Numbered from the stretch's first letter, positions 8,301 to 24,000 are shown. The stretch: 24,000 nt of DNA from Thermoleophilia bacterium (GCA_016649615.1 JAENXK010000015.1:3704-27703), one strand, 5' to 3'. A program made the numbers and translations. Notes: generated by a model not told the origin, from the letters alone.

Positions 8301-8303
8301 CGG

Positions 8304-9544: not shown

Positions 9545-9554
9545 CTGACCCATG

Positions 9555-10781: not shown

Positions 10782-10827
10782 TTCACCTTCGCCGGGAGGA
10801 TAGAGAGAAGGTGCCAGACTGGCCCCG

Positions 10828-11442: not shown

Positions 11443-11455
11443 CCGCCGGTCGGGT

Positions 11456-11662
11456 CTACTCGACGCCCCTGGCAACCGGGATCCACTCCGCCACGGGCAG
11501 GTCGGTCTGCCCGGCCATCCAGCAGGCGACCGGTGCCGCCGTCCTCTCGGAGGCGTGAGCGGCGACTCCGGCCAGCTCGAGGATCGCCTCGACCTGCTCC
11601 GGGGTCGGGGGCTGCACGCCGGTCAGCTCGGAAAATTTCTCGATCCACTCGTCACGGGTCAC
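11456..11662 (-). CDS. Small conserved hypothetical protein, DUF6457-like
   Basis: 68 aa with a GTG start, preceded by AAGGAGG at 5-nt spacing (+ strand cctcctt at 11668-11674). Very high GC3. The sequence (DEWIEKFSELTGV...VEAILELAGVAAHASERTAAPVACWMAG) matches my recollection of the small actinobacterial family usually found beside mobA. This is recollection, not a verified hit. Confidence 0.6.
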   Translation of the reverse strand: MTRDEWIEKFSELTGVQPPTPEQVEAILELAGVAAHASERTAAPVACWMAGQTDLPVAEWIPVARGVE

Positions 11663-11704
11663 AAATGCCTCCTTGGTTCGTCGGCGGATAACGGGACGTT
11701 CTGA

Positions 11705-12838: not shown

Positions 12839-13644
12839 GAGCCCGCCCGATCGAGCCCGCGGTCGGCGCCGAAAAGCTTCACCGAGAGCAGGATCAGCGC
12901 CGCGACGGCGATAAGCACAGCCGAGATCGCCAGCGCGGCGGTGAAACCATCCGGGTCGGAGAACCGCGAGAAGATTGCCAGCGGTGCGGTCTGAGTCACT
13001 CCCTGGAGCGACCCGGCAAACATCAGGGTCGCTCCGAACTCGCCCAGAGCCCGGCCCCAGGCCAGGGCCAGGCCGGATGAAAGTCCGGGGCGCGCCCCGG
13101 GTACCGCCACCGAGACGAAAGTCCGAAACGGCCCGGCCCCGAGAGTGCGTGACGCCTCGAGCCGGCCGCGGTCGAGAGAGGCGAAAGCGGCGACCGCCTG
13201 ACGGAGGTAAAAGGGCGCAGCGACGAAGATGAGAGCGACGATCACGCCGGCGGTCTGCAGCACCAACTCGATCCCGGCATCACTGATCCAGACTCCGAAT
13301 ATCCCCTGCGGTCCGAAGGCGGCAAGAAGGGCGATGCCGGCGACTGCCGGGGGCATGACCAGAGGAAGCTCAATCAGGGTGAGGGCGAAAGAACGGCCGG
13401 GGAAATCCCTCCTGGCCAGGAAGTAGGCCGCCGGGGTGCCGACCACGATGATCACCAGCACCGCCACCACGGTGGTCCGGAGGCTGAGCCAGAGTGCGTC
13501 GAGTACAACCGGCTCACCCAGGGCGGCGATCAGCTGGGCCGGAGTAGTGTCGGCGAAGATCGCGACGGTCGGCAGGGTCAGGAAGAGCAGTGTCACGGCA
13601 AGCGCCAGGAAGGCGATCCGCCCGAACCAGGAGCCGAGGCTCAC
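12835..13644 (-). CDS. modB: Molybdate ABC transporter permease ModB
   Basis: Binding-protein-dependent permease with the EAA loop LEASRTLGAGPFRTFVSVAVPGARPG. Overlaps modA and modC by 4 nt each. Confidence 0.9.
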   Translation of the reverse strand: MSLGSWFGRIAFLALAVTLLFLTLPTVAIFADTTPAQLIAALGEPVVLDALWLSLRTTVVAVLVIIVVGTPAAYFLARRDFPGRSFALTLIELPLVMPPAVAGIALLAAFGPQGIFGVWISDAGIELVLQTAGVIVALIFVAAPFYLRQAVAAFASLDRGRLEASRTLGAGPFRTFVSVAVPGARPGLSSGLALAWGRALGEFGATLMFAGSLQGVTQTAPLAIFSRFSDPDGFTAALAISAVLIAVAALILLSVKLFGADRGLDRAGS

Positions 13645-14441
13645 CCGCCCGGCGGCAGAAACCCGGCCTGCCCCAGCCGCACCGCTCCCTCACCCCCTGT
13701 GAGGCCGTTCAGGTACCGGCGGGCGAGGTCCGGCTCGGGGGCCCCTCTGACCACCGCGCCCGCGTAGGCGATGCGAGGCTGAATTTTTCCCGGGATCGGG
13801 ATCGCCTCGAGGAGGCCCCCGACAGCGCGCACATCGGTCCGGTAGACGATCCCGGCGTCGGCGGCCCCCCGGACCAGTTTGGCGGTGATCGAACCAGCCT
13901 CCGGTTCGCGTGAAGCGGTGTTGGCGAGGATCTTTTCCCGCTCTTCCGGCGCGAGTTCGGCCAGCAGCCTGTCGGAATAGATGCCGACCGGGACGCTGGA
14001 GTCGCCGAGAATCACCGAGCGGTCCGGAGCGGTCAGATCGGCGAGGCCGTCGATCCCGCTACCGGCCGGTGCCGCGATCACGAGTCGGTTGGAGGCGAAA
14101 ACCCGCGGCCGCTCGAGCAGCCCTTCCCGGTGGAGCCGCCTCGGAAGCGCAGTATCGGCCGCGACATAAACGTCCGGTCTGGCTCCCTGCCGGATCTGGA
14201 CCGCCAGCAGGTCGGATCCGGCGAACGACTGGCGGACCTGCGTCGGCGGCAGCGTCCCGGCATAGTCGGCCAGCGCGGTCTGGAGCGAAGAGGCGGCCAG
14301 AACCGTGAGTCGCGGCCGGTCGTCCCCACCACCGGTCCCGCAGGCAGCGATCCCCATGCCGCCCAGGCCGACCAGCAGGGAGGCGAACAGAACCCGGATG
14401 ACCGGACCCGGGGATCTGTGAACCTTCCTGCGCCTAGTCAC
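13641..14441 (-). CDS. modA: Molybdate-binding lipoprotein ModA
   Basis: Signal peptide with lipobox IAAC-G. ModA-like blocks: LTVLAASSLQTAL, QSFAGSDLLAVQIRQGARPDVYVAAD. Confidence 0.85.
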   Translation of the reverse strand: MTRRRKVHRSPGPVIRVLFASLLVGLGGMGIAACGTGGGDDRPRLTVLAASSLQTALADYAGTLPPTQVRQSFAGSDLLAVQIRQGARPDVYVAADTALPRRLHREGLLERPRVFASNRLVIAAPAGSGIDGLADLTAPDRSVILGDSSVPVGIYSDRLLAELAPEEREKILANTASREPEAGSITAKLVRGAADAGIVYRTDVRAVGGLLEAIPIPGKIQPRIAYAGAVVRGAPEPDLARRYLNGLTGGEGAVRLGQAGFLPPGG

Positions 14442-14829
14442 CCGAATCGCCGCGGTCGATCATGACCGAGGTTGCCTTGACCATGGCGGTGGCCTTCACG
14501 CCCGGAGCCAGACCGAGTTCCTCTACCGAGTCCCGGGTGACCGCGGCGGTGATCAGATGCGGTCCCGCCTCGATCTCGACCAGGGCCATCACCCCGTCGG
14601 CCTCGACCGAGCGAACGACGCCCGCAAACCGGTTGCGGGCTGAAAATGTGTCACCGGTTTCGTGCCGGCCGGGGCTGCCCCGCAGGCGTTCGACCTCACT
14701 CACCGGGACCCGTCTCCGGTTTCGCTCATCGCGACCCGTCCTGATCTTGCCGGCCCGGTCCCAGCGCCGGACCGTGTCGGTGCTGACCCCCAGTTGCCGG
14801 GCGGCCTCGCCAATACTCAAATCGGTCAT
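14434..14829 (-). CDS. Molybdate-responsive regulator candidate: MerR/excisionase-type HTH fused to a TOBE (Mop) molybdate-binding domain
   Basis: The N-terminus LSIGEAARQLGVSTDTVRRWDRAGKI is an HTH_17-like motif. The C-terminus SARNRFAGVVRSVEADGVMALVEIEAG...ITAAVTRDSVEELGLAPGVKATAMVKATSVMI is a single TOBE/Mop fold pattern. It overlaps modA by 8 nt. Confidence 0.8.
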   Translation of the reverse strand: MTDLSIGEAARQLGVSTDTVRRWDRAGKIRTGRDERNRRRVPVSEVERLRGSPGRHETGDTFSARNRFAGVVRSVEADGVMALVEIEAGPHLITAAVTRDSVEELGLAPGVKATAMVKATSVMIDRGDSGD

Positions 14830-14850
14830 TGCCTAGGCACTATATAGGCA
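14830..14850. promoter_or_regulatory. Perfect palindromic operator candidate abutting the regulator start codon, with an embedded -10-like TATAGT
   Basis: TGCCTA-GGCACTATA-TAGGCA has 6-bp perfect arms and a 9-bp spacer. It contains the 8-bp palindrome CTATATAG (14840-14847) and CCTAGG. On the minus strand, TATAGT (14839-14844) lies 9 nt upstream of the ATG at 14829. That is consistent with a leaderless or near-leaderless transcript. Confidence 0.4.
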
Positions 14851-14855
14851 GAGCT

Positions 14856-14972
14856 ACCCAAGCGCGAGAGTCCGGCAGCGGCACGATCTCGATGAACCGG
14901 ACCTGATACCCGGCAGAGCGGGCGAAGTCGCAGAACCGCCCGACCTCCTCCGGCCGGACGTTCACCGGGACA
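14856..14972 (-). pseudogene. Relic fragment of a second moaA gene (internal ~39 codons only)
   Basis: Hand alignment: 14877-14951 versus 16249-16323 (inside the intact moaA) gives about 66/75 identical bases. The minus-strand translation ...VNVRPEEVGRFCDFARSAGYQVRFIEIVPLPDSRAWV... parallels MoaA ...VNAVAIRDFTEDEVGRFCEFARSTRYQVRFIEFMPLDGDRSWV..., with a 6-codon gap. There is no start, no radical-SAM Cys motif and no C-terminal domain. Confidence 0.6.
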
Positions 14973-14976
14973 TGGT

Positions 14977-15741
14977 CTAGCGCCCGCGCTCCATCAGATA
15001 CCGCTTGGCCACGGCTCGTGACTCCTCGTCAGCCAGCGCGGCCATCGTGATTTCCGCGTCGCGAAAGCTCTGGCGGGTCGAGTAGGCCTCCTCGACCGAA
15101 GCGTCGACCAGCTGCTTGGTCTGCCTGATCAGGAACCCCGGCTTCTCCGCCAATCTGGCGGCCAGGGCCTCCACCTCGGACTCGAGATCGTCGTCAGCCA
15201 CGACCTGGTTGAGGAAGCCGAGCGATAGTGCCTCGGCCGCCGTGAAGGGACGGCAAGTCAGGACGAGTTCCTTGGTCATCGCCGGTCCGAGCTCTCGCAC
15301 CAGCCGCGGGATCCCGCCCCAGGCGAGCGGGATACCCAGATCGACCTCGGGGATCGAGAACCGGGTCGAGGCGGCTGCCAGCCGCAGGTCGCAGGCTGCC
15401 GCGAGGACAAGCGCGCCACCGACACAGTGACCGTGGATCCTGGCGATGGTGAGCGCCGGGATCGCGCCCACCGCTTCGGCCATCTGTCTGCCGAGGTCGA
15501 TCGTCGACGATGAAGGATCCGCGGTCCCGGCCGCATCAAGGTCGAATCCGGCAGAGAATGCCCGGCCCTCCCCGCCGACGATCACTACTTTCAGGTCCGG
15601 GGTCTCGGCAAGCACGCCGGCGGCCGCGGTCAACTCCCGGAGCGCTGTCGGACTGAGCGCATTGAGGCGCTCGGGCCGGGTCAGAGTGATCCGGGCGAGG
15701 GGCGACGTGGCTTCCAGTTTGAGGGCAGTGAATTCGGTCAT
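14977..15741 (-). CDS. Enoyl-CoA hydratase/isomerase (crotonase superfamily) protein
   Basis: ARITLTRPERLNAL, VVIVGGEGRAFSAGFDL and HGHCVGGALVLAAACDLRLA are classic crotonase blocks. I prefer the ATG at 15741 (MTEFTALKLE...). The ORF track's 15801 start is an alternative. Confidence 0.8.
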   Translation of the reverse strand: MTEFTALKLEATSPLARITLTRPERLNALSPTALRELTAAAGVLAETPDLKVVIVGGEGRAFSAGFDLDAAGTADPSSSTIDLGRQMAEAVGAIPALTIARIHGHCVGGALVLAAACDLRLAAASTRFSIPEVDLGIPLAWGGIPRLVRELGPAMTKELVLTCRPFTAAEALSLGFLNQVVADDDLESEVEALAARLAEKPGFLIRQTKQLVDASVEEAYSTRQSFRDAEITMAALADEESRAVAKRYLMERGR

Positions 15742-15842
15742 CCGGAGGGTCTCAAGCGTACCGTCACACGATCGCCCCATCGCGGACAATCCGTCATCCA
15801 TCTGTTCTTCCCCGTATCGGCGGACACGGTGATGCTCCGGTC

Positions 15843-16838
15843 TCAGCCGCCGATCGCGCTCATCGTGCGGGGCGGCTGCTGGAAGCCGGGTTCGTTGACC
15901 CGGTGCTTCAGCTCTTTTCGCCAGACAGCTTCCCGGATGATCCCGTCGATCTCGGCGTCATCGGCCCCGCTCCTCAGCGGCTCCCGCAGATCGGTCTCGC
16001 TCATCGAGAACAGGCAGGTTCGCAGCTTGCCTTCGGCGGTCAGCCGGATCCGGTTGCAGTCGGAGCAGAACGGTTCGGAGACCGGGTTGATGAAGCCGAT
16101 CTCTCCTCTCCCGTCGGTGAACCGGAAGACCCTGGCGGTGGCCGAGGGCTCGCGCGGGAGTTCCTCGATCGGGTGGATCGCGGCAACCATCTTCCGCAGC
16201 TGTTCACCGGCCAGCACAGATTCCGGAACCCACGAGCGGTCCCCGTCGAGCGGCATGAACTCGATGAACCGGACCTGGTACCGCGTCGAGCGGGCGAACT
16301 CGCAGAACCGCCCGACCTCGTCCTCGGTGAAGTCCCGAATCGCAACCGCGTTGACCTTTATCGGGTCGACTTCAGGGTGGGCGGCGAGCGCCTCCAGTCC
16401 GTCGAGAACCCGGGGCAGGGCATCGCGCCGGGTCATCTGGAAGAAGCGGTCACGCTGGAGTGAGTCGATCGAAACGTTGACCCGCTGGATTCCGGCCGAA
16501 ACCAGCGCCGCGGCATCACGCCCGAGCAGGTAGCCGTTGGTGGTCAGCGACAGATCACTGATTCCCTCGACGGCCGCCAGCATCCCGAGCAGGTCCGGAA
16601 ACTGCTTCCTGACCAGCGGCTCGCCTCCTGTCAGGCGGAGGTCTTCGATCCCCATCCCGGCGAAGATCGATACCAGTCGCGTGATCTCCTCGAAGGTGAG
16701 GATCTCCTCCCGATCCAGCCAGTCCAGGCCTTCCGCGGGCATGCAGTACTGGCAGCGGAAGTTGCAGCGATCAGTGACCGAGACCCGCAGGTCGCTGATG
16801 CGCCTTCCGTGGCCGTCGTGGAGTTGTCGGTCAGCCAC
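15843..16838 (-). CDS. moaA: GTP 3',8-cyclase MoaA (radical SAM)
   Basis: LRVSVTDRCNFRCQYCMP (CxxxCxxC), a GGEPL block, and the C-terminal auxiliary-cluster motif CSDCNRIRLTAEGKLRTCLF. The GTG start shares one base with the sulfatase stop (TAGTG). Confidence 0.95.
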   Translation of the reverse strand: MADRQLHDGHGRRISDLRVSVTDRCNFRCQYCMPAEGLDWLDREEILTFEEITRLVSIFAGMGIEDLRLTGGEPLVRKQFPDLLGMLAAVEGISDLSLTTNGYLLGRDAAALVSAGIQRVNVSIDSLQRDRFFQMTRRDALPRVLDGLEALAAHPEVDPIKVNAVAIRDFTEDEVGRFCEFARSTRYQVRFIEFMPLDGDRSWVPESVLAGEQLRKMVAAIHPIEELPREPSATARVFRFTDGRGEIGFINPVSEPFCSDCNRIRLTAEGKLRTCLFSMSETDLREPLRSGADDAEIDGIIREAVWRKELKHRVNEPGFQQPPRTMSAIGG

Positions 16839-18502
16839 TACCTTGCGCCAGCTTCTTCCAGAGCCGTCCGCGTCCGCTCCAGGAGGTCCTGGTACCCGGA
16901 ATCGATGACCTCTCCCGAATCCCGGTCAACCAGGTTGCGGATCTGATCCGGATCCGCCTTCATGTCGTACAACTCGTACTCCGGGTCCTTCCCGCCGGAC
17001 TCGTCCAGGTACACCGCGTACATCGCCTCCGGCGACCTCACCGCCCGGATCTGGTTCGGCCGGGCGACCACGTCCCTGTAGGCGGTGCCGGACTGGTGGT
17101 CGTCAAACGTGAAGTAGGAGAATTCCTGGACCGACCGGGCCGGCTCCGGGTGTTCACTCACCGCCGACCAGGCGAGCCCTGACGAGGCCAGCCGGTTCCG
17201 GTCGGGCTTCGATTCAGCGGCCAGCACCGGCGTCAGATCCCGGCCCCTCACCCCGTCGCCCGATGTGTCGACCCCAGCGATCGATGCGAGGGTCGGCAGG
17301 ATGTCGCAGAGCGAAGCCGGAGCCTCACTGGCCGCCGGCTCGGAGAACAGGATCGGGTTCGAGATCACCAGTGGCACGTTGATCGTCTCGTCGTAGGCGT
17401 TGAACATCTTCTGTCTGAGCCCGCCGTGCGACATGCCCATCTCGCCATGGTCGGAAGTCCTGACAATCACCGTCTTCGAGCGGAGCGACTCATCGTCTTC
17501 CGGGTCACCTAGCGCGGCCAGGATCCGGCCGACCTTTTCGTCGACGAGGCGCTGCAGGTGGGCGTAGAAGCGGCAGTAGTCGAGCTTCTCCTCGTCGCCG
17601 TTCAACCCCCCGAGAAAGGCGGCCTGGCCGAGCTTAATCGTCGCCTGCACCCGTGGCTTGGAGGCAAGGTTTTCGCCAGCTGACTCCGGCAGATCGATCT
17701 CGCCCAGATCCGCCCATTCGGAGCGGTCGTAGCCGCCCTGTTCAAAAGTGGACGGGTACCCGAGTACGTCATGCGGGTTGACCAGTGAGAAAATCAGGGC
17801 CCAGGGCTCGGGCGGGGGATCGGCCAGGAAGCGCTCGGCCTGGCGGGTGAAGTCCTCGTCAAAGCCCTGCCTGCTTCTTCCGGCCCCGCTGCCGCCCCCG
17901 AAATGAGATGCCTCAATGTTCTCGCCGGCATCGGGAGGCTCCCAGTCGTGCAGCCCGTAGCTGTCGGCCAGGTGATCGGTGTCACCCGGGCCCCAGTCGC
18001 CGTCCACCGGCTGACTGAGATGCCATTTGCCTTTCAGCACCGTGCGGTATCCGGCCCGTTTCAGGACCGTGGCGATGTTGGGCGTGGCCGGATCGAGGTC
18101 GCGTTCCTCGTCGCCGCCGTCCGGGCGGCGTACCGCGCCTTTTGCCACCGTGCCGAAAGCGTCGGCCGCCGACAGTTCCCCGTTTCTCACCGCGGCGAAC
18201 GCGCCCCGGACGCTCCAGTGGGCATGCCGCGGGTTTGCCTTCGCACCCCCCTGGGTCAGGGTCAATTTGACGCCGTGCTCGTCCGGCCAGCGACCGGTCA
18301 GAAGCGACGCCCGGCTCGGCGAGCACATACAGCTTGCGGCGCAGGTCTCGGTGAAGGTGACCCCGGTCCGGCTGATCTCGGCATCGGCCGGAGTCAGCTT
18401 CTCGAGCCACTCGGGATCGTCCGGCCAGTGCTGCGGCCGGCGCTGCTGGTCGGTGATGATCAGGAGAAGGTTCGGTGGAACTTCGCCGCCGCCATTGCTC
18501 AC
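16838..18502 (-). CDS. Cys-type sulfatase family protein (formylglycine-dependent), apparently cytoplasmic
   Basis: LLLIITDQQR and the sulfatase signature CMCSPSRASLLTGRWP (C-x-P-x-R). Downstream blocks: KGKWHL, TSDHGEMG. I see no signal-peptide-like hydrophobic N-terminus. Confidence 0.85.
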   Translation of the reverse strand: MSNGGGEVPPNLLLIITDQQRRPQHWPDDPEWLEKLTPADAEISRTGVTFTETCAASCMCSPSRASLLTGRWPDEHGVKLTLTQGGAKANPRHAHWSVRGAFAAVRNGELSAADAFGTVAKGAVRRPDGGDEERDLDPATPNIATVLKRAGYRTVLKGKWHLSQPVDGDWGPGDTDHLADSYGLHDWEPPDAGENIEASHFGGGSGAGRSRQGFDEDFTRQAERFLADPPPEPWALIFSLVNPHDVLGYPSTFEQGGYDRSEWADLGEIDLPESAGENLASKPRVQATIKLGQAAFLGGLNGDEEKLDYCRFYAHLQRLVDEKVGRILAALGDPEDDESLRSKTVIVRTSDHGEMGMSHGGLRQKMFNAYDETINVPLVISNPILFSEPAASEAPASLCDILPTLASIAGVDTSGDGVRGRDLTPVLAAESKPDRNRLASSGLAWSAVSEHPEPARSVQEFSYFTFDDHQSGTAYRDVVARPNQIRAVRSPEAMYAVYLDESGGKDPEYELYDMKADPDQIRNLVDRDSGEVIDSGYQDLLERTRTALEEAGAR

Positions 18503-19704
18503 GGTCGACCGTCCGCCTCGCCGCGGTCGACTGCCGCGATCACTGCGCGTCCGACCTCGATAGCCCGGCCCAGGGACCGGTCACTGATCCGGTCGGCCGT
18601 ATCGGTCGGAGCGTGGTAGTCGGGGATGCTCTCCGCCTGAACGCCCAGGGTGGCCGCGCGCCCGCCACGCACCAGGACCGGGGTCGAGTCATAGGGCAGG
18701 CCCGAACCGAGCGCAATCGGACTTAGTCCGAGATCGGGTCGCTCTCGTTCGATTCTCCTCATCACTTCCAGTATCCCGGAATCGGCCGGCCAGCTCTGCA
18801 TAGCGTTGCCTTCGCGCTCGAGGTAACGGAGCGGGGCGTCTCCGCCGACCCCGTCGAAGTTCAGAAACAGCCAGCCGGAGGTCTTGGTCGTGCGCAGGAA
18901 CGATCGCATCCCGAGCACGCCCGACTCCTCGCTGCCGGTGACCAGCAGAACCAGACGGGTCCCCTTCAGCGGTTCCACGGCGACCTCCGAAGCCAGTACG
19001 CCGGAGACCGCCGCGCCGGAAGCGTTGTCGTTGGCGCCGGGCACGTCTTCCCCGCGAATTTCCCTTTCGAGCATCAGGGCGGCTCCCAGCCCGCAGAGCA
19101 GGCGGGCCGCCCCGACCAGACCCCGGCCTGCCCGGTGTCGGCCGAGAACCGGGTCGAGCGCCTGAATGCCCAGTGCCGCCCCGACCAGGCCGGAGAGCCT
19201 GCCGAGATAAGGAGTCACCGAGGGGTGAAACATCAGCCCGCTACGCGAACTGTCGAGATGGGACACAAGACAGAGCGTCCGCACGACCTCTCCCTTCGGC
19301 TCGATCGTGGCCACCAGGTTGCGGCTCTCCCCGTGACAGGTCAGGCGGGATTCGCCAATTCGGCCGAAGCGGCCCTCGTCGAATCCGGCCGCCAGCGCGG
19401 CCAGCGAAAGCCCGGTGCCGAGGCGCGGGGAGAGCCGCCCGACCAGGCCGGCTGACGCAGCGGCGGCCAGAACCGGTCCGTAAAGCGAACCGAACGAAGC
19501 GCGGGACCTGAACCCGGTCAGATCCACCCCTGCCAGCCCGGATTCGAGCAGCCGTTCCCGCAGCGCCTCGGCTCCTTCCCGCTCGGCGTCCGAGCAGGGA
19601 CGCCGGGGGCCGACCCCGGAGGCCAGCATCGTCGTCCACTCGCGGGCCCTGGCCACGGCGCCGGGTCCCGAAGCGGGACCGGGCCCGCGAGAAGCCGGCT
19701 TCAC
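18499..19704 (-). CDS. M28-family metallopeptidase (aminopeptidase-like)
   Basis: The M28 metal-ligand blocks occur in order: SHLDSS, GANDNASGAAV, GSEESG, DYHAPTD. GTGA overlaps at both ends. Confidence 0.75.
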   Translation of the reverse strand: MKPASRGPGPASGPGAVARAREWTTMLASGVGPRRPCSDAEREGAEALRERLLESGLAGVDLTGFRSRASFGSLYGPVLAAAASAGLVGRLSPRLGTGLSLAALAAGFDEGRFGRIGESRLTCHGESRNLVATIEPKGEVVRTLCLVSHLDSSRSGLMFHPSVTPYLGRLSGLVGAALGIQALDPVLGRHRAGRGLVGAARLLCGLGAALMLEREIRGEDVPGANDNASGAAVSGVLASEVAVEPLKGTRLVLLVTGSEESGVLGMRSFLRTTKTSGWLFLNFDGVGGDAPLRYLEREGNAMQSWPADSGILEVMRRIERERPDLGLSPIALGSGLPYDSTPVLVRGGRAATLGVQAESIPDYHAPTDTADRISDRSLGRAIEVGRAVIAAVDRGEADGRP

Positions 19705-19964
19705 GGCTCCTTGTTCATTCTCGAGACGACCCGCTCGGCAACATCCGGCGGAGGCGGCTCCCGCAGGCCGCCGAGCCCCGAGACTGTACGCCGCAGCGCC
19801 GCCAGCAGCTTGCGGCAGCTCGAGCAGTCATGCAGGTGCCGGCGAGCCCGCTCCGTCTCTTCGGGAGGCAGTTCACCGTCAAGGTGCTCGGATAGATGCG
19901 CCCTGGTCCAGCGGTGCTCGCGCATGAACCAGGGCATCGTGACCATCTTCTTCAGAGGATTCAC
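19701..19964 (-). CDS. Small soluble zinc-binding anti-sigma factor (ZAS, zf-HC2 type)
   Basis: H-x3-C-x2-C motif (HLHDCSSC) preceded by SEHLDGELPPEE. 87 aa with no hydrophobic segment. GTGA overlap with the sigma gene. Internal ATGs at codons 7, 10 and 14 are possible alternative starts. Confidence 0.7.
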   Translation of the reverse strand: MNPLKKMVTMPWFMREHRWTRAHLSEHLDGELPPEETERARRHLHDCSSCRKLLAALRRTVSGLGGLREPPPPDVAERVVSRMNKEP

Positions 19965-20620
19965 TCCTCCCCCTTTCCGGTCAGGCCGGCGATCGACTTT
20001 CGGACCCGCAACCGGGCCCGGTGAAGGCGGCTCTTGAAGGCCGGCTCACCGAGTTCCATCACGGCCGCCGCTTCGGCGGTGCTCAAACCTTCTATGTCAC
20101 GCAGGACAAGAGGCAACCTGAGATCGGGTGGCAGGTCGAGGACGGCCTGTTTCAGGGCGCGCCGGAGCTCGGCCTGCTCGGCCTTGACTCCGGGGGCCTG
20201 CGAGCTGTCGGAGATTTCGAAGCCCGAATCGGCGTTAATCGAACGGGCGGTCCGCTCGCGATGACGGCCGACCTGTTCGGCCCTGCGGCGGGACTCGTTG
20301 ACCCCGATCCGGTAAAGCCATGTGAAGAATTTCGCATCGCCCTTGAAGCGATCGATCGACCGCCAGGCCCGGATAAAGGCCTCCTGAACAACCTCCTCAG
20401 TTTCTTCACCGCGCCCGAGCAGACGCGCGACCACGCTGTAGAGGCTGTCGGCATGGCGTCGAACCAGTGCCTCGAAGGCCGCTTCGTCGCCCGCCTGGGC
20501 CCTTTTGACCAGCCCCGCGTCCGGATCTTCCTTCACCGGCCGGAGGCTAACAGCAGCCCGGCCCGCGCCCGGCATAGCGAGGGATTCAAATCCCGGAACC
20601 GGCAATGCCAACCCGGTCAT
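19961..20620 (-). CDS. ECF-type RNA polymerase sigma-70 family factor
   Basis: Region 2 (AFEALVRRHADSLYSVVARLLG...EEVVQEAFIRAWRSIDRF) and region 4 (LPPDLRLPLVLRDIEGLSTAEAAAVMELGEPAFKSRLHRARLRVR). The ATG forms an ATGA overlap with the upstream gene's stop. Confidence 0.85.
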   Translation of the reverse strand: MTGLALPVPGFESLAMPGAGRAAVSLRPVKEDPDAGLVKRAQAGDEAAFEALVRRHADSLYSVVARLLGRGEETEEVVQEAFIRAWRSIDRFKGDAKFFTWLYRIGVNESRRRAEQVGRHRERTARSINADSGFEISDSSQAPGVKAEQAELRRALKQAVLDLPPDLRLPLVLRDIEGLSTAEAAAVMELGEPAFKSRLHRARLRVRKSIAGLTGKGEE

Positions 20621-21261
20621 GGCCGCCCTCCGGCCGGTTGCTCCGGCCCCGCCACCCGGGCATCGGATTCCGTCGGATCCCGGACCTCCGGTCGCCCGCC
20701 ACCAACTGTCTGCGGCCGGCCGCGCAGGCGGCGTTCAACCAGCGGTACCACGACAACGAGCGCGGCGACCGCCGCGATCGAGACGAAGAAGCCGGGCGAG
20801 CCGGGGTTGCCGAGCGAGCTGCCGAGCGCCACGAAAGCGATCGTGCCGGGCACGATGCCGATCACCGTCGCGCTCGTGTAGTCGCGAGGGTGTACCCCGG
20901 AAACGCCGAACGCGTAGTTGGTCAGGTTGAACGGGGCGACCGGGACCAGCCTGACCACCAGCACGGCGAGGAATCCGGATCCCGTAAGCCGTTCGTCGAA
21001 ACGGGCCAATCGCTTCCCCAGTCGCCGCTTGACCCGCTCCCGCCCGGCCCGGCGGGCAATCGCAAAGGCGGCGATCGCCCCCAGGGATGCCCCGGCCAGA
21101 ACCAGGATCGTTCCCCAGAACGGACCGAAAAGAGCTCCCCCGGCAATCGTGGCGACCGAGCCCGGCACCAGACCGACCGTCAGCAGGGCATAAGCCATGA
21201 CAAAGGCGATCGGCCCGAGCACACCTGCGGCCAACACGATCTCTTCGAGCTCGGCGGTCAC
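20617..21261 (-). CDS. TVP38/TMEM64 (DedA superfamily, SNARE-associated PF09335-like) membrane protein
   Basis: LVPGSVATIAGGALFGPFWGTILVLAGASLGAIAAFAIARRAGR and RLVPVAPFNLTNYAFGVSGV are typical of the family. I chose the GTG at 21261 (GTGA overlap with the upstream stop). The 362-aa ORF-track version runs through the neighbouring gene in another frame and is Arg/Pro-rich. Confidence 0.75.
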   Translation of the reverse strand: MTAELEEIVLAAGVLGPIAFVMAYALLTVGLVPGSVATIAGGALFGPFWGTILVLAGASLGAIAAFAIARRAGRERVKRRLGKRLARFDERLTGSGFLAVLVVRLVPVAPFNLTNYAFGVSGVHPRDYTSATVIGIVPGTIAFVALGSSLGNPGSPGFFVSIAAVAALVVVVPLVERRLRGRPQTVGGGRPEVRDPTESDARVAGPEQPAGGRP

Positions 21262-21857
21262 CGGAGCTCCCTGACCGCGAGGGCAACCCGCTGGACCACG
21301 GTTACCGCAACCATCGCGCCGAAAACCCAGGCGATCACGGCCGCCCGCGCCGGCCAGAAGCAGAATGCGGAGTAGGCGACAATTGTCTCGGTGCCTTCGG
21401 TCAATCCACCGGTGAAGCGCAGAGAGCGTTCGTCGCCGTGGTCGAGTCCCCGTTTCTCGACCAGGGCACTGAAGGAGAGCAGGGCGACATTGTTGAGCAG
21501 GTAGACAGCGAGCAGAAAGACGCAGGCGACCCGGGCATCCGGGACGGCTATCGCCACCCCGCAGACGAATCCGCCGTAGACCACGAAGTCGGCAAGGAAG
21601 TCCATGAAGCCGCCTAGATCCGAAGCCGTCTCCTGTCGGCGGGCCAGGACTCCGTCGAGCCCGTCGAGAGCCCGGTTTCCCAGCAACGCTGCGAGCGCGA
21701 TCCACCAGGCCCCGAAGGCCGCCGCCACACAGGCACCGAGACCGACCACCAGGCCGAGCGCGGTCACCATGGCGGGCGAAACCCCGGCCCGGTCAGCCGA
21801 ACGGGCGGCCACGTCGAACGCCGGCGCCAGCCTGGGTCTCAGGGCTGCGTCAAGCAC
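21258..21857 (-). CDS. CDP-alcohol phosphatidyltransferase family protein
   Basis: The signature D-G-x2-A-R-x8-G-x3-D-x3-D is present as DGLDGVLARRQETASDLGGFMDFLADF. 199 aa with multiple TM helices. The GTG start overlaps the radical SAM gene's stop by 8 nt. Confidence 0.85.
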   Translation of the reverse strand: MLDAALRPRLAPAFDVAARSADRAGVSPAMVTALGLVVGLGACVAAAFGAWWIALAALLGNRALDGLDGVLARRQETASDLGGFMDFLADFVVYGGFVCGVAIAVPDARVACVFLLAVYLLNNVALLSFSALVEKRGLDHGDERSLRFTGGLTEGTETIVAYSAFCFWPARAAVIAWVFGAMVAVTVVQRVALAVRELR

Positions 21858-23328
21858 GCGTCACCTTGCCGGCCGGATCGCGAGTCCCGGACCCTTCCGT
21901 GGCTACCGGGCGATCGCCGGCCTCGGCATCGCTCCCCGATTCGTGAAGCGGAAGCAGCCGGGCCAGGGCCAGGTTCTCGGCCGGGTCGAGCACCGCGTGC
22001 TGGACGCAGGCCGGAACCATCCGGTCATCTTCGGGGTGAGACATCCCGTAGGCGCAACCCTGCAGTCTTTCCTGAGCAGCCCGTATCTCGGGCTCATCGC
22101 TGATCTCGCCGCGTTCGAGTCCGTCCCAGGCCGGTTTCACGACCGAGGCATCCATGAAGTTGTGCATGACCACGGTCACCGCCGTCGGACGGCGGTGAAT
22201 GATCCGGACCGGCCCGCCCATGCGGCCGGCCAGCCGGAAGGCGAAAGGAACCGCCGCGAACAGCGCGCGAGGCTCCCGGGCGAGGGCACGCAGGAGCCGG
22301 GTGAACAGGAGCGGCTTCGATGAGGCGAAATCCATCCCTCCTGCCGCGGCCATGAACAAGTCTCGCATACGGATGTCACGCGGGTCATCCTGATCGAAAA
22401 GTGTCCAGTAGCGGTCCCCGGAAAACCCGCCGTGGGCGGTGCGGTTGCAGCGGGGGTCCCCCCACTGCATGGCCCGGTAGTGGAGACGGGCGCCCACGCC
22501 CCGCTCGATCCGCTCCCAGATCTCGTCGTCGGTCTGGACCCTGAACCTGTCCTTCCACCGACTCGGATTGCCGACGTGCGCGGCCGGCTGGAAGCTGAAC
22601 ATGCGAAAACCCATGCCCCGGCAGTCGCGGATCAGCGCCGGGATCTGCTCGACGTTGCGGGGCGTGACCGTCATGTTGTGGGCCAGGTAGCTGGTAACAC
22701 CGTGCTCGCGTTCGAGCCGGGCGAACAACTCGCAGAACCGGCGTCGGTAAGGATTCAGCTCGGCCTCTGACCGGGCCCGCTTGATGCCTCGCCGCCCATG
22801 CATGGTCGTGTCGAAGTGCCCGGCGAAACTGAGGTGGGAAAACCGGGGCCGCCCGGTCTCCGGGTCAAGCGCCAGGGTTTCCAGATACTCGTAGTCGAAG
22901 TCGCCGTGGGTCATCGACATCGGCTTGCGGTCGTGTTCGATCATCTGCCGGAGCGCTCCGGCATGCGCCTCGGGGCCGAGCAGCGTGACCTCACCGCCGA
23001 TCAGCTGGGCGTGAACCCCCGGGCCCCGGATCTCGCGGGCATTCTTCATCTGCGAGCCGATCTCCCGGGCGGTGTGATCACCGTCGGTCCGAACGCGGTT
23101 CGAATCGCGTGAGTGATAGCAGGGGGTACAGGCGAGGTCGCAGCGCGGAAATACCCCGTGAGTGCCCTCGCAGCCGGTCGACCGCCGGCCGAGCATCTGA
23201 CTCGGGCCACGAATCGCCTCGGGCAGTTGTGCCCACCGCCGCTCTAGGGCGGCCTCCAGCTCCGGAGGCTCGGGCCGGGTCTTCTGCTCGAGCGCGCGCA
23301 GCCTCCTGATCGCATCGGCGACCCTCAT
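21850..23328 (-). CDS. Radical SAM enzyme of unassigned subfamily
   Basis: 492 aa. CDLACTPC (CxxxCxxC, residues 63-70, nt 23119-23142) is preceded by GCEGTHGVFPR, then a GGEVTLL SAM-binding-like block. AGGAG lies ~8 nt upstream of the ATG. I see no B12-binding motif and no SPASM/twitch Cys cluster, only scattered Cys in the C-terminal half (e.g. QGCAYG...VPACVQH). Confidence 0.8.
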   Translation of the reverse strand: MRVADAIRRLRALEQKTRPEPPELEAALERRWAQLPEAIRGPSQMLGRRSTGCEGTHGVFPRCDLACTPCYHSRDSNRVRTDGDHTAREIGSQMKNAREIRGPGVHAQLIGGEVTLLGPEAHAGALRQMIEHDRKPMSMTHGDFDYEYLETLALDPETGRPRFSHLSFAGHFDTTMHGRRGIKRARSEAELNPYRRRFCELFARLEREHGVTSYLAHNMTVTPRNVEQIPALIRDCRGMGFRMFSFQPAAHVGNPSRWKDRFRVQTDDEIWERIERGVGARLHYRAMQWGDPRCNRTAHGGFSGDRYWTLFDQDDPRDIRMRDLFMAAAGGMDFASSKPLLFTRLLRALAREPRALFAAVPFAFRLAGRMGGPVRIIHRRPTAVTVVMHNFMDASVVKPAWDGLERGEISDEPEIRAAQERLQGCAYGMSHPEDDRMVPACVQHAVLDPAENLALARLLPLHESGSDAEAGDRPVATEGSGTRDPAGKVTRA

Positions 23329-23374
23329 CTACCCACTCCTGCCGCGTTCATCCGGCTGCCCCGGCCGCTCTCAT

Positions 23375-23429
23375 GCTGATTTCGACCCGACGGGCCGCAA
23401 CTCGGTTCTTCGGCCGGCGCCAAATCAGC
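23375..23429. promoter_or_regulatory. 8-bp perfect inverted repeat bracketing the leader/terminator region upstream of the radical SAM gene
   Basis: GCTGATTT (23375-23382) and AAATCAGC (23422-23429) are exact reverse complements 39 nt apart. The right arm overlaps the stop codon of the upstream ABC permease. An inner GGCCG...CGGCC pair is also present. Confidence 0.25.
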
Positions 23430-24000
23430 CTGTCCTTCCGGCGCGAACCGCCAGACCGAGGGCCAGCAATGCCGGAGCCAGGAAGAGCAGCGAGAGCGAA
23501 GCGGCCACCTGGGGATCACTGCCGACGTACGGCAGCAGGACGACCGGCAGCGTGGGGCGGCCGGCGGCGATCGCGAGCGAACTCCCGTATTGCGCCCAGG
23601 AGACGAGGAAGGCCAGCAGGGCGGCCGCGGCCAGGGTCGGCCTCACGTTCGGCAGAGTGACATGAAGCAGGCGCTCGACCGGCCCCACGCCGAGCGAGCG
23701 ACTCATCTCCTCGAGCCCGCGAAGCCGGGGTCCGAATCCGGCGGAGAGAACAAGGATCGCGTACGGCAGGACGAAGACCAGGTGGACCAGGACCAGGCCG
23801 GCCAGCGAATCGATCAGCCCCAGTCGGACGAACCACTCGGTCAGGCCGACTCCGGTGGCGAGGGGCGGCACCAGCAGCGGTGCGGCCAGGATGAGAATGA
23901 CCGGAGCCGGGTGGCGCAGGCGACGCTCGCCGAGGACCCGGGCCGCCGGCCAGGCGGTCACCAGCGCCAGCAGCGTAGTCAGAAGTGCTACCTCGATCGA
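23425..24000 (-). CDS. ABC transporter permease (binding-protein-dependent inner-membrane component), 5'-truncated by the window edge
   Basis: EAA-loop pattern LEEMSRSLGVGPVERLLHVTLPNVRP. The frame stays open upstream of the listed GTG to base 24000 (SIEVALLTTLLALV...), so the gene continues beyond the window. Confidence 0.8.
   Translation of the reverse strand, partial: SIEVALLTTLLALVTAWPAARVLGERRLRHPAPVILILAAPLLVPPLATGVGLTEWFVRLGLIDSLAGLVLVHLVFVLPYAILVLSAGFGPRLRGLEEMSRSLGVGPVERLLHVTLPNVRPTLAAAALLAFLVSWAQYGSSLAIAAGRPTLPVVLLPYVGSDPQVAASLSLLFLAPALLALGLAVRAGRTG

What the first reader, a model, noticed from the sequence alone, without database searches (positions are those of the whole stretch)
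20617..23328. Radical SAM + CDP-alcohol phosphatidyltransferase + TVP38/DedA: candidate undescribed membrane-lipid modification module
Seen in sequence: three consecutive minus-strand genes joined by overlapping stop/start codons (8 nt, then GTGA). They are (i) a 492-aa radical SAM protein, (ii) a 199-aa CDP-alcohol phosphatidyltransferase with the full DGxxARx8Gx3Dx3D signature, and (iii) a TVP38/TMEM64 DedA-superfamily membrane protein. The radical SAM protein has about 60 residues plus an extra Cys (GCEGTHG) ahead of its CDLACTPC cluster motif, and no visible B12 or SPASM domain. Established knowledge: CDP-alcohol transferases build phospholipid head groups. DedA/TVP38 proteins are implicated in lipid or lipid-carrier translocation. 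Radical SAM enzymes perform otherwise inaccessible lipid-tail chemistry (archaeal tetraether synthase Tes/GDGT-MAS, bacterial membrane-spanning lipid synthase, hopanoid HpnH). Inference: the trio could make, modify and flip an unusual phospholipid. I cannot place the radical SAM protein in any characterised subfamily from sequence alone, so this is the most likely home of new biology in the window.
Basis: partly seen in the sequence, partly recalled or inferred. Interest (0 to 1): 0.8.

Follow-up and report, generated by a model that had tools for sequence, protein, structure and literature searches.

The report
Tes-like radical SAM phospholipid operon
A soil actinobacterium carries a stress-controlled operon that pairs a stripped-down relative of the archaeal enzyme that fuses lipid tails with a phospholipid head-group transferase and a lipid-flippase-type protein; no enzyme of this family has been characterised, and it may remodel membrane lipids.

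Summary
Three minus-strand genes are joined by overlapping stop and start codons: a 492-aa radical SAM protein, a 199-aa CDP-alcohol phosphatidyltransferase and a 214-aa VTT/DedA protein.

The radical SAM protein can be placed. It belongs to a large uncharacterised family found in Thermoleophilia and, more distantly, in Gemmatimonadota, Alphaproteobacteria and Planctomycetota. Its only full-length solved relative is the archaeal tetraether synthase Tes/GDGT-MAS (profile E=1.5e-19; best Foldseek match). It keeps the radical SAM core and three cysteines that align with cysteines in Tes's C-terminal cluster domain. It lacks Tes's rubredoxin and N-terminal cluster domains. A histidine sits where Tes has its labile methionine ligand.

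Exact adjacency of the three genes holds only in the closest relatives. Even so, a CDP-alcohol transferase of one of two subfamilies lies within 6 kb of the radical SAM gene in 39 of 81 loci. A shared ECF-type promoter motif also precedes the radical SAM, transferase and VTT genes in differently arranged genomes.

Best reading: a stress-induced module that modifies phospholipid tails by radical chemistry. The chemistry itself is untested. It is a new variant of a known kind, of moderate to high interest.

The parts
23384..23408 (-). ECF-type promoter-like motif GAACCG-N14-GGGTC, 56 nt upstream of the radical SAM start codon (motif 3' end 23384 to ATG at 23328)
   Evidence: These are the only conserved blocks in the intergenic alignment with L001 and L002. 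The same motif lies just before the radical SAM start in L004 and L052, and before sigma, VTT, DsbD and AhpC genes in other loci. The total count is not above shuffles (20 vs 15.9), so only its position is significant.
23348..23374 (-). Short upstream ORF (MRAAGAAG*) at the place where L001 and L002 have the radical SAM start codon
   Evidence: Read. Its function, if any, is unknown.
21850..23328 (-). Tes-like radical SAM protein, 492 aa. CX3CX2C at C63/C67/C70. Family-invariant C53, C294, C425, C441 and H389. No transmembrane segment.
21258..21857 (-). CDP-alcohol phosphatidyltransferase ('type A'), 199 aa, complete catalytic signature at residues 65-90, several hydrophobic segments
   Evidence: Pfam 46.3 bits. 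Best NCBIfam hits are archaetidylinositol-phosphate synthase (49.7 bits) and PIP synthase (33 bits), both far below cutoff. Conserved at 65-93% identity across many Actinomycetota contigs.
20617..21261 (-). VTT/DedA-superfamily (TVP38-type) membrane protein, 214 aa
   Evidence: Pfam VTT_dom 98.6 bits. Hydrophobic segments. A type A transferase + VTT pair also occurs in L061, L073 and L166.
19961..20620 (-). ECF sigma factor, 219 aa, start overlaps the VTT stop (ATGA)
   Evidence: Sigma70_r2, Sigma70_r4_2 and Sigma70_ECF. A sigma/anti-sigma pair also lies next to the radical SAM gene in L001-L004 and L047 and in L167.
19701..19964 (-). Soluble zinc-binding anti-sigma factor, 87 aa, HLHDCSSC (HxxxCxxC) at residue 43, no transmembrane segment
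   Evidence: zf-HC2 40 bits. Weak hit to anti-sigma-R RsrA..
16838..19704 (-). Downstream co-oriented, overlapping genes: M28 peptidase (18499-19704) and a formylglycine-type sulfatase (16838-18502). Probably co-transcribed, but not part of the conserved set.
   Evidence: Present in the nearest relative L168 but absent after the anti-sigma gene in L002, the only other locus that extends far enough to test.
23425..24000 (-). Permease of an ABC importer directly upstream (runs off the window). This importer is a recurrent neighbour of the type A transferase.
   Evidence: BPD_transp_1. Same transporter in L168, L165 and L166.

Best explanation
The three genes, together with the ECF sigma/anti-sigma pair that follows them, most likely form one stress-inducible operon for remodelling a membrane phospholipid.

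Shown: the radical SAM protein is a remote, reduced homolog of the archaeal tetraether synthase Tes/GDGT-MAS. It keeps the radical SAM core and three cysteines (C294, C425, C441) that align with cysteines in Tes's C-terminal cluster domain. H389 sits where Tes has its labile Met439 ligand. The Tes rubredoxin and N-terminal cluster domains are absent.

Inferred mechanism, by analogy with Tes: the enzyme cleaves SAM reductively and abstracts a hydrogen from an unactivated carbon of a lipid alkyl chain. It parks the resulting radical on the auxiliary cluster, then forms a new bond at that carbon. This could be a C-C tail coupling giving a macrocyclic or membrane-spanning lipid, or another C-X bond.

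Inferred partner roles: the adjacent CDP-alcohol transferase, whose nearest named relatives use inositol phosphate, makes the head-group-defined phospholipid that is the substrate or partner. The VTT/DedA protein redistributes the lipid across the membrane.

Inferred regulation: transcription starts at an ECF-type promoter read by the operon's own sigma factor. The sigma factor is held by a soluble zinc-binding (HxxxCxxC) anti-sigma factor, so thiol-oxidative or envelope stress probably induces the operon.
For: Homology to Tes:
- A family profile hits GDGT-MAS 7TOL at E=1.5e-19, covering profile positions 52-439 of 453 and chain residues 110-503 of 526. The next PDB hit is 2.8e-4 and covers the core only.
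- Foldseek ranks 7TOL/7TOM first with both models: E=5.6e-8, then E=1e-11 with TM 0.50 over 464 columns using the pLDDT 85.5 model. Other radical SAM enzymes score 9e-6 or worse, and most align over only about 205-285 columns (the core); a few longer alignments have rmsd above 12.
- Distant family members hit the NCBIfam Tes model at 1e-11 to 1e-18.
- Tes C338/C455/C470 align with the family-invariant C294/C425/C441, and Tes Met439 aligns with the invariant H389 (Met439 role from PMC9433317).

Lipid context:
- A CDP-alcohol transferase lies within 6 kb in 39 of 81 loci. Type A occurs in 7 and type B in 33; type B scores 25.3 bits in Pfam, above the cutoff of 22. For a single-copy gene, chance would give about 0.2 loci.
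- In L167 one operon reads radical SAM, type B transferase, redoxin, type A transferase.
- VTT/DedA and MMPL transporters recur nearby.

Regulation:
- The GAACCG-N14-GGGTC motif lies just upstream of the radical SAM start in the window, L001, L002, L004 and L052. A looser form (GAACCG-N14-AGGTC) does so in L167. The motif also precedes sigma, VTT, DsbD and AhpC-transferase genes.
- Translational coupling runs through to the sigma factor gene.
- No sigma-70-like promoter was found in the scanned interval 15500-24000, and terminator-like hairpins were no more frequent than in shuffled sequence (6 vs 4.2 +/- 2.6), none of them in an intergenic gap of the chain.
Against: - No lipid or enzymatic data exist for any family member.
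- Identity to Tes is only about 13-14%. Two of Tes's four metal centres are missing. The window protein itself does not reach the NCBIfam Tes model.
- Strict three-gene adjacency is limited to the nearest relatives.
- The type A transferase is widely conserved and occurs without the radical SAM gene (L165, L166). It may simply be the lineage's housekeeping inositol-phospholipid synthase.
- Other family members sit with genes NCBI names 'arsenosugar biosynthesis' glycosyltransferases, with nucleoside hydrolases and with DUF547. This fits a small-molecule or sugar pathway equally well.
- Overall, the promoter motif is not more frequent than in shuffled sequence.
- Which Tes cysteines bind the C-terminal cluster could not be confirmed from the paper text.
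Confidence: 0.5

Rival explanations
1. The adjacency is a lineage-specific accident. The Tes-like enzyme belongs to a different pathway that makes a glycosylated or 5'-deoxyribosyl-type metabolite or glycolipid, together with the TIGR04283 glycosyltransferase, a second radical SAM enzyme and an FAD oxidoreductase. The transferase, VTT protein and sigma/anti-sigma pair form a separate housekeeping or envelope-stress unit, next to which the radical SAM gene was inserted.
For: - In the 80 related loci, the GT2 is near the radical SAM gene in 58, the metallophosphoesterase-radical SAM fusion in 48 and the FAD oxidoreductase in 37. The window-type transferase is near it in only 6 of the 80 (7 of 81 counting the window).
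- In L083, TIGR04282 and TIGR04283 proteins (both above cutoff) and a SPASM radical SAM protein flank it. In L084 a nucleoside hydrolase follows it.
- The type A transferase occurs with the same ABC importer and sigma/anti-sigma pair but without the radical SAM gene in L165. This suggests an ancestral arrangement into which the radical SAM gene was inserted.
Against: - The window's protein falls in a subclade with no GT2 context at all. Its recurring neighbours there are the type A transferase, VTT, sigma/anti-sigma, a MerA-like reductase, DUF3179 and DsbD.
- The transferase + VTT pair reappears near the radical SAM gene at other positions: L061 is 2.5 kb downstream and L073 is 2 kb upstream.
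- Even the GT2-type cluster carries its own CDP-alcohol transferase, in 33 loci.
- The shared promoter motif links the genes in L167.
Confidence: 0.25
2. The enzyme performs sulfur or thiol chemistry rather than tail coupling. Tes forms a transient bond between substrate carbon and a cluster sulfide; this reduced relative could stop at that stage and release a thiolated lipid or other C-S product. Alternatively, it could serve an unidentified low-molecular-weight-thiol system of Thermoleophilia as part of a thiol-oxidative-stress regulon.
For: - Thiol-redox neighbours recur: MerA/mycothione-reductase-like disulfide reductase in 33 loci; AhpC/redoxin, DsbD and thioredoxin-like genes.
- One relative, P0202, carries an N-terminal thioredoxin-like VPGUxxT domain fused to the radical SAM domain.
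- The anti-sigma factor is a soluble HxxxCxxC type with a weak RsrA hit.
- A sulfur-containing lipid adduct was seen with Tes when SAM was limiting (PMC9433317; PMC13459092).
Against: - All of this rests on gene context. No sulfur-donor gene (cysteine desulfurase) was seen next to the radical SAM gene.
- Redox partners could simply supply electrons to an oxygen-sensitive enzyme in an aerobe.
- The auxiliary-site residues are conserved like a stable cluster site.
Confidence: 0.1
3. The radical SAM protein is a peptide (RiPP) or cofactor maturase, and the membrane-protein genes next to it are irrelevant.
For: Foldseek also lists SuiB, SkfB, anSME, PqqE and MoaA at E of about 1e-4 to 1e-5. A weak NCBIfam hit to TrsS covers only the cluster-binding motif.
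Against: - Most of those matches cover about 205-285 columns (the shared core); the few longer ones are poorly superposed (rmsd above 12).
- No SPASM or twitch Pfam hit and no B12 domain.
- No conserved small precursor ORF appeared among the recurrent neighbour clusters, although the ORF survey only kept ORFs of 90 aa or more.
- Full-length homology is to Tes alone.
Confidence: 0.05

Closest known systems
Tetraether synthase Tes / GDGT-MAS (M. jannaschii MJ0619, PDB 7TOL/7TOM; NCBIfam NF045702)
   Same: - Radical SAM core followed by a C-terminal domain; the two proteins align end to end.
- Three C-terminal cysteines at aligned positions.
- A helical insertion before the last strands.
- Soluble, with no membrane segment.
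- Encoded near CDP-alcohol transferases, the enzyme class that makes Tes's head-group-bearing substrates.
   Different: - About 13-14% identity, far below the NCBIfam cutoff.
- Lacks the rubredoxin-like domain (C9/C12/C33/H36) and the N-terminal [4Fe-4S] domain (C73/C77/C80). They are replaced by about 50 helical residues with a single invariant cysteine, C53.
- An invariant histidine sits where Tes has the labile Met439.
- The host is an aerobic bacterium with ester-linked fatty-acyl lipids.
- The product is unknown.
Bacterial Tes homologs proposed for brGDGT synthesis (Acidobacteria and others; PMC8941075)
   Same: Bacterial radical SAM proteins related to Tes and suspected to couple lipid tails.
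   Different: Those were found by BLAST at E<1e-50 and 20-42% identity to Tes, so they are true close homologs. This family is far more distant and would not pass those thresholds. It also has a different domain content and a different taxonomic range.
[quoted passage not shown]
   Same: Radical SAM enzymes that form C-C bonds between lipid tails. Bacterial gms genes cluster with tes or mss (PMC11214058). This resembles the pairing here of a Tes-like gene with a second radical SAM gene in most Solirubrobacterales loci.
   Different: Homology searches found no Tes homolog in the Mss-producing species, so Mss is taken not to be one (PMC13159169), and it has been found only in anaerobes. Gms belongs to the SPASM/twitch group. 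Neither family matches this protein.
TrsS radical SAM (seleno)protein (NCBIfam NF045646)
   Same: Distant family members score about as well against TrsS as against Tes.
   Different: TrsS has no known function (PMC13188914). The window protein scores 19 bits against a cutoff of 490.
PIP synthase / archaetidylinositol-phosphate synthase (CDP-alcohol phosphatidyltransferase family)
   Same: Complete catalytic signature, about 200 aa, multi-pass membrane protein. These are the best-scoring named models.
   Different: Scores of 33-50 bits against cutoffs of 170-180, so orthology is not established. The alcohol substrate is unknown.
DedA/VTT proteins (bacterial DedA lipid-carrier recycling proteins; eukaryotic TMEM41B/VMP1 scramblases)
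   Same: VTT domain. The lipid or lipid-carrier translocation role is taken from established knowledge of the family.
   Different: No ortholog-level match: zero NCBIfam hits. VTT genes in these genomes often pair with a MerA-like reductase rather than with the radical SAM gene.

Membership tests
Radical SAM superfamily (PF04055) | CX3CX2C motif in a partial TIM barrel | tested here: met
   C63-x3-C67-x2-C70. Core fold matches many radical SAM structures. The Pfam score for the window protein is 22.7 bits, below the 29.5 gathering score, but many close relatives carry a precomputed PF04055 hit.
Tes / GDGT-MAS (NF045702) | Whole-protein score at or above the curated cutoff (450 bits) | tested here: not met
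   The window protein does not hit the model at E<=0.01. Distant relatives score 33-67 bits.
Tes / GDGT-MAS | [quoted passage not shown] | tested here: met
   hmmsearch of family profile A2 against PDB: 7TOL at E=1.5e-19, profile 52-439 of 453, chain 110-503 of 526. Foldseek alignments of 464-472 columns.
Tes / GDGT-MAS | C-terminal [4Fe-4S] ligated by three Cys plus the labile Met439 | tested here: inconclusive
   Family-invariant C294/C425/C441 align with Tes C338/C455/C470, but the Met439 position holds the invariant H389. The identity of the Tes Cys ligands was not found in the paper text. Cluster binding is untested.
Tes / GDGT-MAS | N-terminal rubredoxin-like iron site (C9, C12, C33, H36) and N-terminal [4Fe-4S] (C73, C77, C80, His) | tested here: not met
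   Only one cysteine (C53) precedes the radical SAM motif. The alignment to Tes starts at chain residue 110 (ligands from PMC9433317).
Tes / GDGT-MAS | Couples terminal carbons of two lipid tails | not testable with these tools
   Needs lipidomics or an enzyme assay.
SPASM/twitch radical SAM (Gms, anSME, RiPP maturases) | SPASM or twitch cysteine-rich C-terminal domain | tested here: not met
   No PF13186 hit. Most matches to these structures cover about 205-285 columns, i.e. the shared core.
B12-binding radical SAM (GrsA/B, Gmm, HpnP/R) | N-terminal cobalamin-binding domain | tested here: not met
   No B12-binding Pfam hit. The N-terminus is two helices in the model.
TrsS (NF045646) | Score at or above the 490-bit cutoff | tested here: not met
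   19.1 bits, residues 53-116 only.
CDP-alcohol phosphatidyltransferase (PF01066) | D-x2-DG-x2-AR-x8-G-x3-D-x3-D signature, and Pfam score above 22 bits | tested here: met
   Signature at residues 65-90. 46.3 bits.
PIP synthase / AIP synthase equivalogs (NF045883, NF040950) | Score at or above the curated cutoffs (170 and 180 bits) | tested here: not met
   33.3 and 49.7 bits.
VTT / DedA superfamily (PF09335) | VTT domain above the gathering score, in a multi-pass membrane protein | tested here: met
   98.6 bits against a cutoff of 33.9. Several hydrophobic segments.
ECF sigma factor with zinc-binding (ZAS) anti-sigma factor | Sigma regions 2 and 4 only; anti-sigma factor with an HxxxCxxC zinc motif | tested here: met
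   Sigma70_r2, Sigma70_r4_2 and Sigma70_ECF; zf-HC2 40 bits. HLHDCSSC at residue 43.

The most novel reading that the evidence does not exclude
This reduced Tes-like family could be the missing tail-coupling enzyme of aerobic soil bacteria. In this reading, Thermoleophilia switch it on through an ECF sigma / zinc anti-sigma stress circuit. The enzyme then covalently links the tails of an inositol-phosphate-type phospholipid, giving macrocyclic or membrane-spanning lipids (iso-diabolic-acid or brGDGT-like).

Known Mss enzymes are confined to anaerobes, and close Tes homologs were found in only 3 of 14 iso-diabolic-acid-producing Acidobacteria (PMC13159169). Such a family would therefore offer a new genetic marker for the sources of bacterial tetraether-type biomarkers.
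Probability: 0.12. Interest if true: 0.9.

Novelty: new variant of a known kind. Interest (0 to 1): 0.62.

Why it matters
Tes is so far the only structurally understood enzyme that joins two unactivated lipid tail carbons. A family that keeps only the radical SAM core and one auxiliary site would mark out the minimal machinery for that chemistry, or reveal a new outcome of it. The family has more than 2,500 sequence clusters and occurs in at least 359 species-level genomes.

Thermoleophilia are among the commonest soil Actinomycetota, and almost nothing is known about how they adapt their membranes. Which bacteria make the membrane-spanning lipids used as palaeoclimate proxies, and with which enzymes, is still an open question.

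The finding also gives a compact test object. The three biosynthetic genes are translationally coupled, so they can be co-expressed as one unit, and the operon carries its own sigma/anti-sigma switch.

Tried and rejected
- A phmmer search of the window protein alone against PDB found nothing. Only a profile that included 28-34%-identical relatives reached Tes.
- An exact-sequence look-up of the window protein found no source contig.
- The first AF2 model, built from 27 close homologs, was mediocre (pLDDT 68). A more diverse 56-sequence alignment raised it to 85.5.
- Rfam found no RNA family in the window, and no sigma-70 promoter was seen in the scanned interval 15500-24000.
- Arsenic link: the NCBI names 'arsenosugar biosynthesis glycosyltransferase' (TIGR04282/TIGR04283) led me to consider an arsenolipid pathway. 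No ArsM was seen in the loci whose genes were listed or scanned; the only ArsM-model hits were weak (about 30 bits against a 400-bit cutoff) for a UbiE-like methyltransferase in L167. The literature searched describes only ArsS/ArsM, with no Tes-like partner. I kept this only as part of a rival explanation.
- DUF547 and TrsS have no functional literature.
- No paper links Thermoleophilia to diabolic acids or brGDGTs.
- RiPP/cofactor maturase reading: rejected, because only the core matches.
- Anaerobic sulfatase-maturase reading, prompted by the downstream sulfatase: rejected. The sulfatase is not conserved with the module, and the fold match to anSME covers the core only.
- The L167 branch in the NJ tree came from a wrong reading frame and should be ignored. 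Its homology rests on the BLASTP alignment.

Full report

Yes. ORF listing gives three consecutive minus-strand genes: 21850-23328 (492 aa), 21258-21857 (199 aa) and 20617-21261 (214 aa from the GTG start). Reading the junctions directly shows an 8-nt overlap (GTGCTTGA) and then a 4-nt overlap (GTGA).

Pfam confirms two of the three assignments: CDP-OH_P_transf at 46.3 bits and VTT_dom at 98.6 bits. Radical_SAM scores only 22.7 bits, below its gathering score. The transferase carries the complete D-x2-DG-x2-AR-x8-G-x3-D-x3-D signature at residues 65-90. The radical SAM protein has C53 (GCEGTHG), C63/C67/C70 (CDLACTPC) and no B12 or SPASM hit.

The VTT stop overlaps the start (ATGA) of an ECF sigma factor gene. 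That gene is followed, again with overlapping or abutting codons, by an 87-aa soluble zf-HC2 anti-sigma factor, an M28 peptidase, a sulfatase and MoaA. No sigma-70-like promoter was found in 15500-24000, and terminator-like hairpins were at the level of shuffled sequence, none in an intergenic gap of the chain.

**2. Organism and family size**

Homologs of the radical SAM protein come overwhelmingly from Solirubrobacterales and other Thermoleophilia (Actinomycetota). There are 2,527 clusters at E<=1e-3, all unnamed or labelled just 'radical SAM protein'. Relatives occur in 359 species-level genomes.

A search of 1.84 billion representative proteins found 678 clusters, many of them gene fragments. 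These include full-length relatives at 28-34% identity. A further search traced these to Gemmatimonadota, Alphaproteobacteria, Planctomycetota and Binatia.

**3. Placing the radical SAM protein**

The window protein alone matches nothing in PDB and no NCBIfam model except a 19-bit hit to TrsS over the cluster motif.

The more distant family members, however, hit the NCBIfam models for tetraether synthase Tes and for TrsS at 1e-11 to 1e-18, far below the cutoffs. A profile of 29 family members then hits GDGT-MAS (7TOL) at E=1.5e-19, over profile positions 52-439 of 453 and chain residues 110-503 of 526. The next PDB hit, SkfB, is at 2.8e-4 and covers the core only.

Two AlphaFold models (pLDDT 68, then 85.5 with a more diverse alignment) both give GDGT-MAS as the top Foldseek match, over about 465 columns (E=5.6e-8; then E=1e-11 with TM 0.50). 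Every other radical SAM structure scores E of 9e-6 or worse, and most align over only about 205-285 columns; the few longer alignments have rmsd above 12.

Comparing conserved residues:
- Across the whole family the invariant cysteines are C53, C63/C67/C70, C294, C425 and C441.
- In the profile alignment, C294, C425 and C441 fall on Tes C338, C455 and C470.
- The family-invariant H389 falls on Met439, the labile fourth ligand of Tes's C-terminal [4Fe-4S] cluster (Met439 role from PMC9433317 and PMC13459092).
- Tes's rubredoxin-like site (C9/C12/C33/H36) and N-terminal cluster (C73/C77/C80) have no counterpart. The first 50 residues here are two helices.

The protein is therefore a remote, reduced member of the Tes lineage, and not a Tes ortholog. 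It is also neither of the other lipid-coupling enzymes. Homology searches found no Tes homolog in the species that carry Mss (PMC13159169), and Gms is a SPASM/twitch enzyme (PMC11214058). TrsS has no known function (PMC13188914).

**4. Is the gene neighbourhood conserved?**

The exact three-gene arrangement is found only in the nearest relatives. L168 (88% identity) has the whole order: ABC importer, radical SAM, transferase, VTT, sigma, anti-sigma, M28, sulfatase, MoaA. L001 and L002 (about 70% identity) keep it through the anti-sigma gene.

Across the 80 related genomic loci, the commonest neighbours differ from those in the window:

| Neighbour | Loci |
|---|---|
| TIGR04283-type GT2 glycosyltransferase (198.7 bits, cutoff 182) | 58 |
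| Metallophosphoesterase-radical SAM fusion (Rv1681-family-like) | 48 |
| 389-aa FAD oxidoreductase | 37 |
| MerA-like pyridine-nucleotide disulfide reductase | 33 |
| Second CDP-alcohol transferase subfamily, 'type B' (Pfam 25.3 bits, cutoff 22) | 33 |
| MMPL transporter | 6 |

Counting both transferase subfamilies, a CDP-alcohol transferase lies within 6 kb of the radical SAM gene in 39 of 81 loci. A single-copy gene would be expected there by chance in about 0.2 loci.

The window-type ('type A') transferase, usually with VTT, also turns up near the radical SAM gene in other orders: 2.5 kb downstream in L061, 2 kb upstream in L073, and 1.5 kb downstream in L003.

A neighbour-joining tree puts the window protein in a subclade with L001, L003, L004, L027, L045, L051, L061, L063, L073 and L080. 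This subclade has no GT2 context at all. Its neighbours are the type A transferase, VTT, ECF sigma/anti-sigma, the MerA-like reductase, DUF3179 and DsbD. One MAG carries both context types as paralogs (L007 and L052).

In the distant subfamily the constant partner is DUF547: 63 of 83 loci, against none of the 81 Solirubrobacterales-set loci. Nucleoside hydrolases (13 loci), ArsS-like radical SAM proteins (7 loci) and TIGR04282/TIGR04283 proteins also appear there.

**5. Regulation**

The intergenic region upstream of the radical SAM gene aligns with L001 and L002 only at GAACCG-N14-GGGTC and at a following CATGA. The motif as a whole is no more frequent than in shuffled sequence (20 vs 15.9 hits). 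Its position, however, is striking. It lies within 90 nt upstream of the radical SAM start in the window, L001, L002, L004 and L052. Chance would put it there in about 8e-4 of loci. It also lies upstream of the local sigma factor gene in L004 and L047.

In L167, an Actinomycetota MAG whose radical SAM protein is 54% identical, a slightly looser form of the motif (GAACCG-N14-AGGTC) precedes the radical SAM gene. The strict or near-strict motif also precedes an AhpC/redoxin gene followed by the type A transferase, the VTT gene and a DsbD gene. The sigma/anti-sigma pair is transcribed divergently. In that locus the radical SAM gene is followed directly by a type B transferase.

So the radical SAM, transferase and VTT genes seem to share one ECF regulon even where they are not adjacent. 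The anti-sigma factor is soluble and carries HLHDCSSC, with a weak RsrA hit. This points to a thiol- or redox-type signal. That step is inferred.

**6. The transferase and VTT genes on their own**

The type A transferase is conserved at 65-93% identity in many Actinomycetota contigs. Its best named models all use inositol phosphate (AIP synthase 49.7 bits, PIP synthase 33 bits, a DIPP synthase 29.5 bits), and all scores are well below cutoff.

The gene also occurs without the radical SAM gene. In L165 it sits next to the same ABC importer and a sigma/anti-sigma pair. In L166 it is followed by VTT, DUF3179, a UbiE-like methyltransferase and a disulfide reductase. It could therefore be the lineage's ordinary inositol-phospholipid synthase. 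VTT genes in these genomes often pair with the MerA-like reductase.

**7. Most likely mechanism**

Shown:
- Operon structure and family memberships.
- Remote, full-length homology to Tes.
- Conserved candidate ligands for one auxiliary cluster.
- Enrichment of CDP-alcohol transferases near the radical SAM gene.
- A shared promoter motif.

Inferred:
- The enzyme abstracts hydrogen from an unactivated lipid-tail carbon. It uses the C-terminal cluster to hold the radical, as Tes does, and forms a new bond there.
- The transferase supplies the phospholipid that carries the required head group. Tes itself acts on head-group-bearing lipids (PMC9433317).
- The VTT protein redistributes the lipid across the membrane.
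- The sigma/anti-sigma pair makes the system stress-inducible.

I put about 0.5 on 'lipid-tail radical modification module', and much less on any particular product.

**8. Rivals**

- (a) A glyco- or nucleoside-type pathway with accidental adjacency (0.25).
- (b) Sulfur or thiol chemistry within a redox regulon (0.10).
- (c) A peptide or cofactor maturase (0.05).

Evidence for and against each is given in the Rival explanations section.

**9. Novelty and verdict**

No paper in the searched library describes this family. It is best called a new variant of a known kind: a Tes-like enzyme with a reduced cofactor set, a histidine in place of the labile methionine, bacterial aerobic hosts and new partner genes.

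The lipid direction and the functional link are strengthened. The claim that the protein cannot be placed, and the picture of a fixed three-gene module, both need correcting. Interest is 0.62.

Noticed in passing
window 23348-23374 (-): A nine-codon upstream ORF (eight sense codons plus stop; ATGAGAGCGGCCGGGGCAGCCGGATGA, MRAAGAAG*) starts where L001 and L002 have the radical SAM start codon, 9 nt after the GGGTC element. In those relatives the transcript may be leaderless. In the window the real start has moved 43 nt further downstream and has a GGAG ribosome-binding site.
   Followed up: partly
L007 and L052 (both from MAG Co_metawrap_516, JBBQLH01): One genome carries two paralogs of the Tes-like gene. 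One is in the GT2 / metallophosphoesterase-radical SAM context. The other is next to a type B transferase, the ECF-type motif, a type A transferase and the ABC permease. This suggests two functional subtypes.
   Followed up: partly
L082-L164 (distant subfamily; e.g. L083 8397-9173, L084 9247-10020): DUF547, a domain with no known function, is adjacent to the Tes-like gene in 63 of 83 loci from other phyla and in none of the 81 Solirubrobacterales-set loci. This is a near-obligate two-gene pair that nobody appears to have described.
   Followed up: partly
L083 3014-5453 (-) and L084 8427-9245: In an alphaproteobacterial MAG the Tes-like gene sits beside TIGR04282 and TIGR04283 proteins (both above cutoff; NCBI names them 'arsenosugar biosynthesis glycosyltransferases'), a SPASM radical SAM protein and an APH-type kinase. 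In a planctomycete MAG a nucleoside hydrolase lies between it and DUF547. No arsenite methyltransferase appeared among the genes listed or scanned in these loci.
   Followed up: partly
P0202 (597 aa): One relative has an N-terminal thioredoxin-like VPGUxxT (seleno)protein domain fused to the Tes-like radical SAM domain (NF041383, 71 bits, residues 40-131). This is another link between the family and thiol or selenol redox chemistry.
   Followed up: no
L081 5374-7071 (also in 48 of 80 loci): A fusion of a calcineurin-like metallophosphoesterase (Metallophos_2) with a radical SAM domain close to the M. tuberculosis Rv1681 ('MoeX') family (268 bits, cutoff 380). It is uncharacterised and is the commonest second radical SAM partner of the Tes-like gene.
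   Followed up: no
window 7818-16838: A molybdenum cofactor and molybdate block on the minus strand, with MobA on the plus strand. It holds a probable MoCF_biosynth/MoaB-type gene (not scanned), MoaC, MoeA, MobA-like, DUF6457, ModC/ModB/ModA, a MerR+TOBE regulator, an enoyl-CoA hydratase and MoaA. MoaA directly follows the sulfatase in the same gene chain. Rfam reported no Moco riboswitch.
   Followed up: partly
window 16838-18502 (-): The sulfatase has the C-x-P-x-R formylglycine signature (MCSPSRASLLTGR) and its start overlaps the M28 peptidase stop. It is conserved with the operon only in the nearest relative (L168).
   Followed up: partly
L166 6001-10691; L167 6001-8886; L045 7404-11423: A recurring set travels with either the type A transferase or the Tes-like gene: DUF3179, a UbiE-like methyltransferase, a MerA-like disulfide reductase, DsbD and AhpC/redoxin. 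This looks like an envelope thiol-redox regulon in these Actinomycetota.
   Followed up: partly
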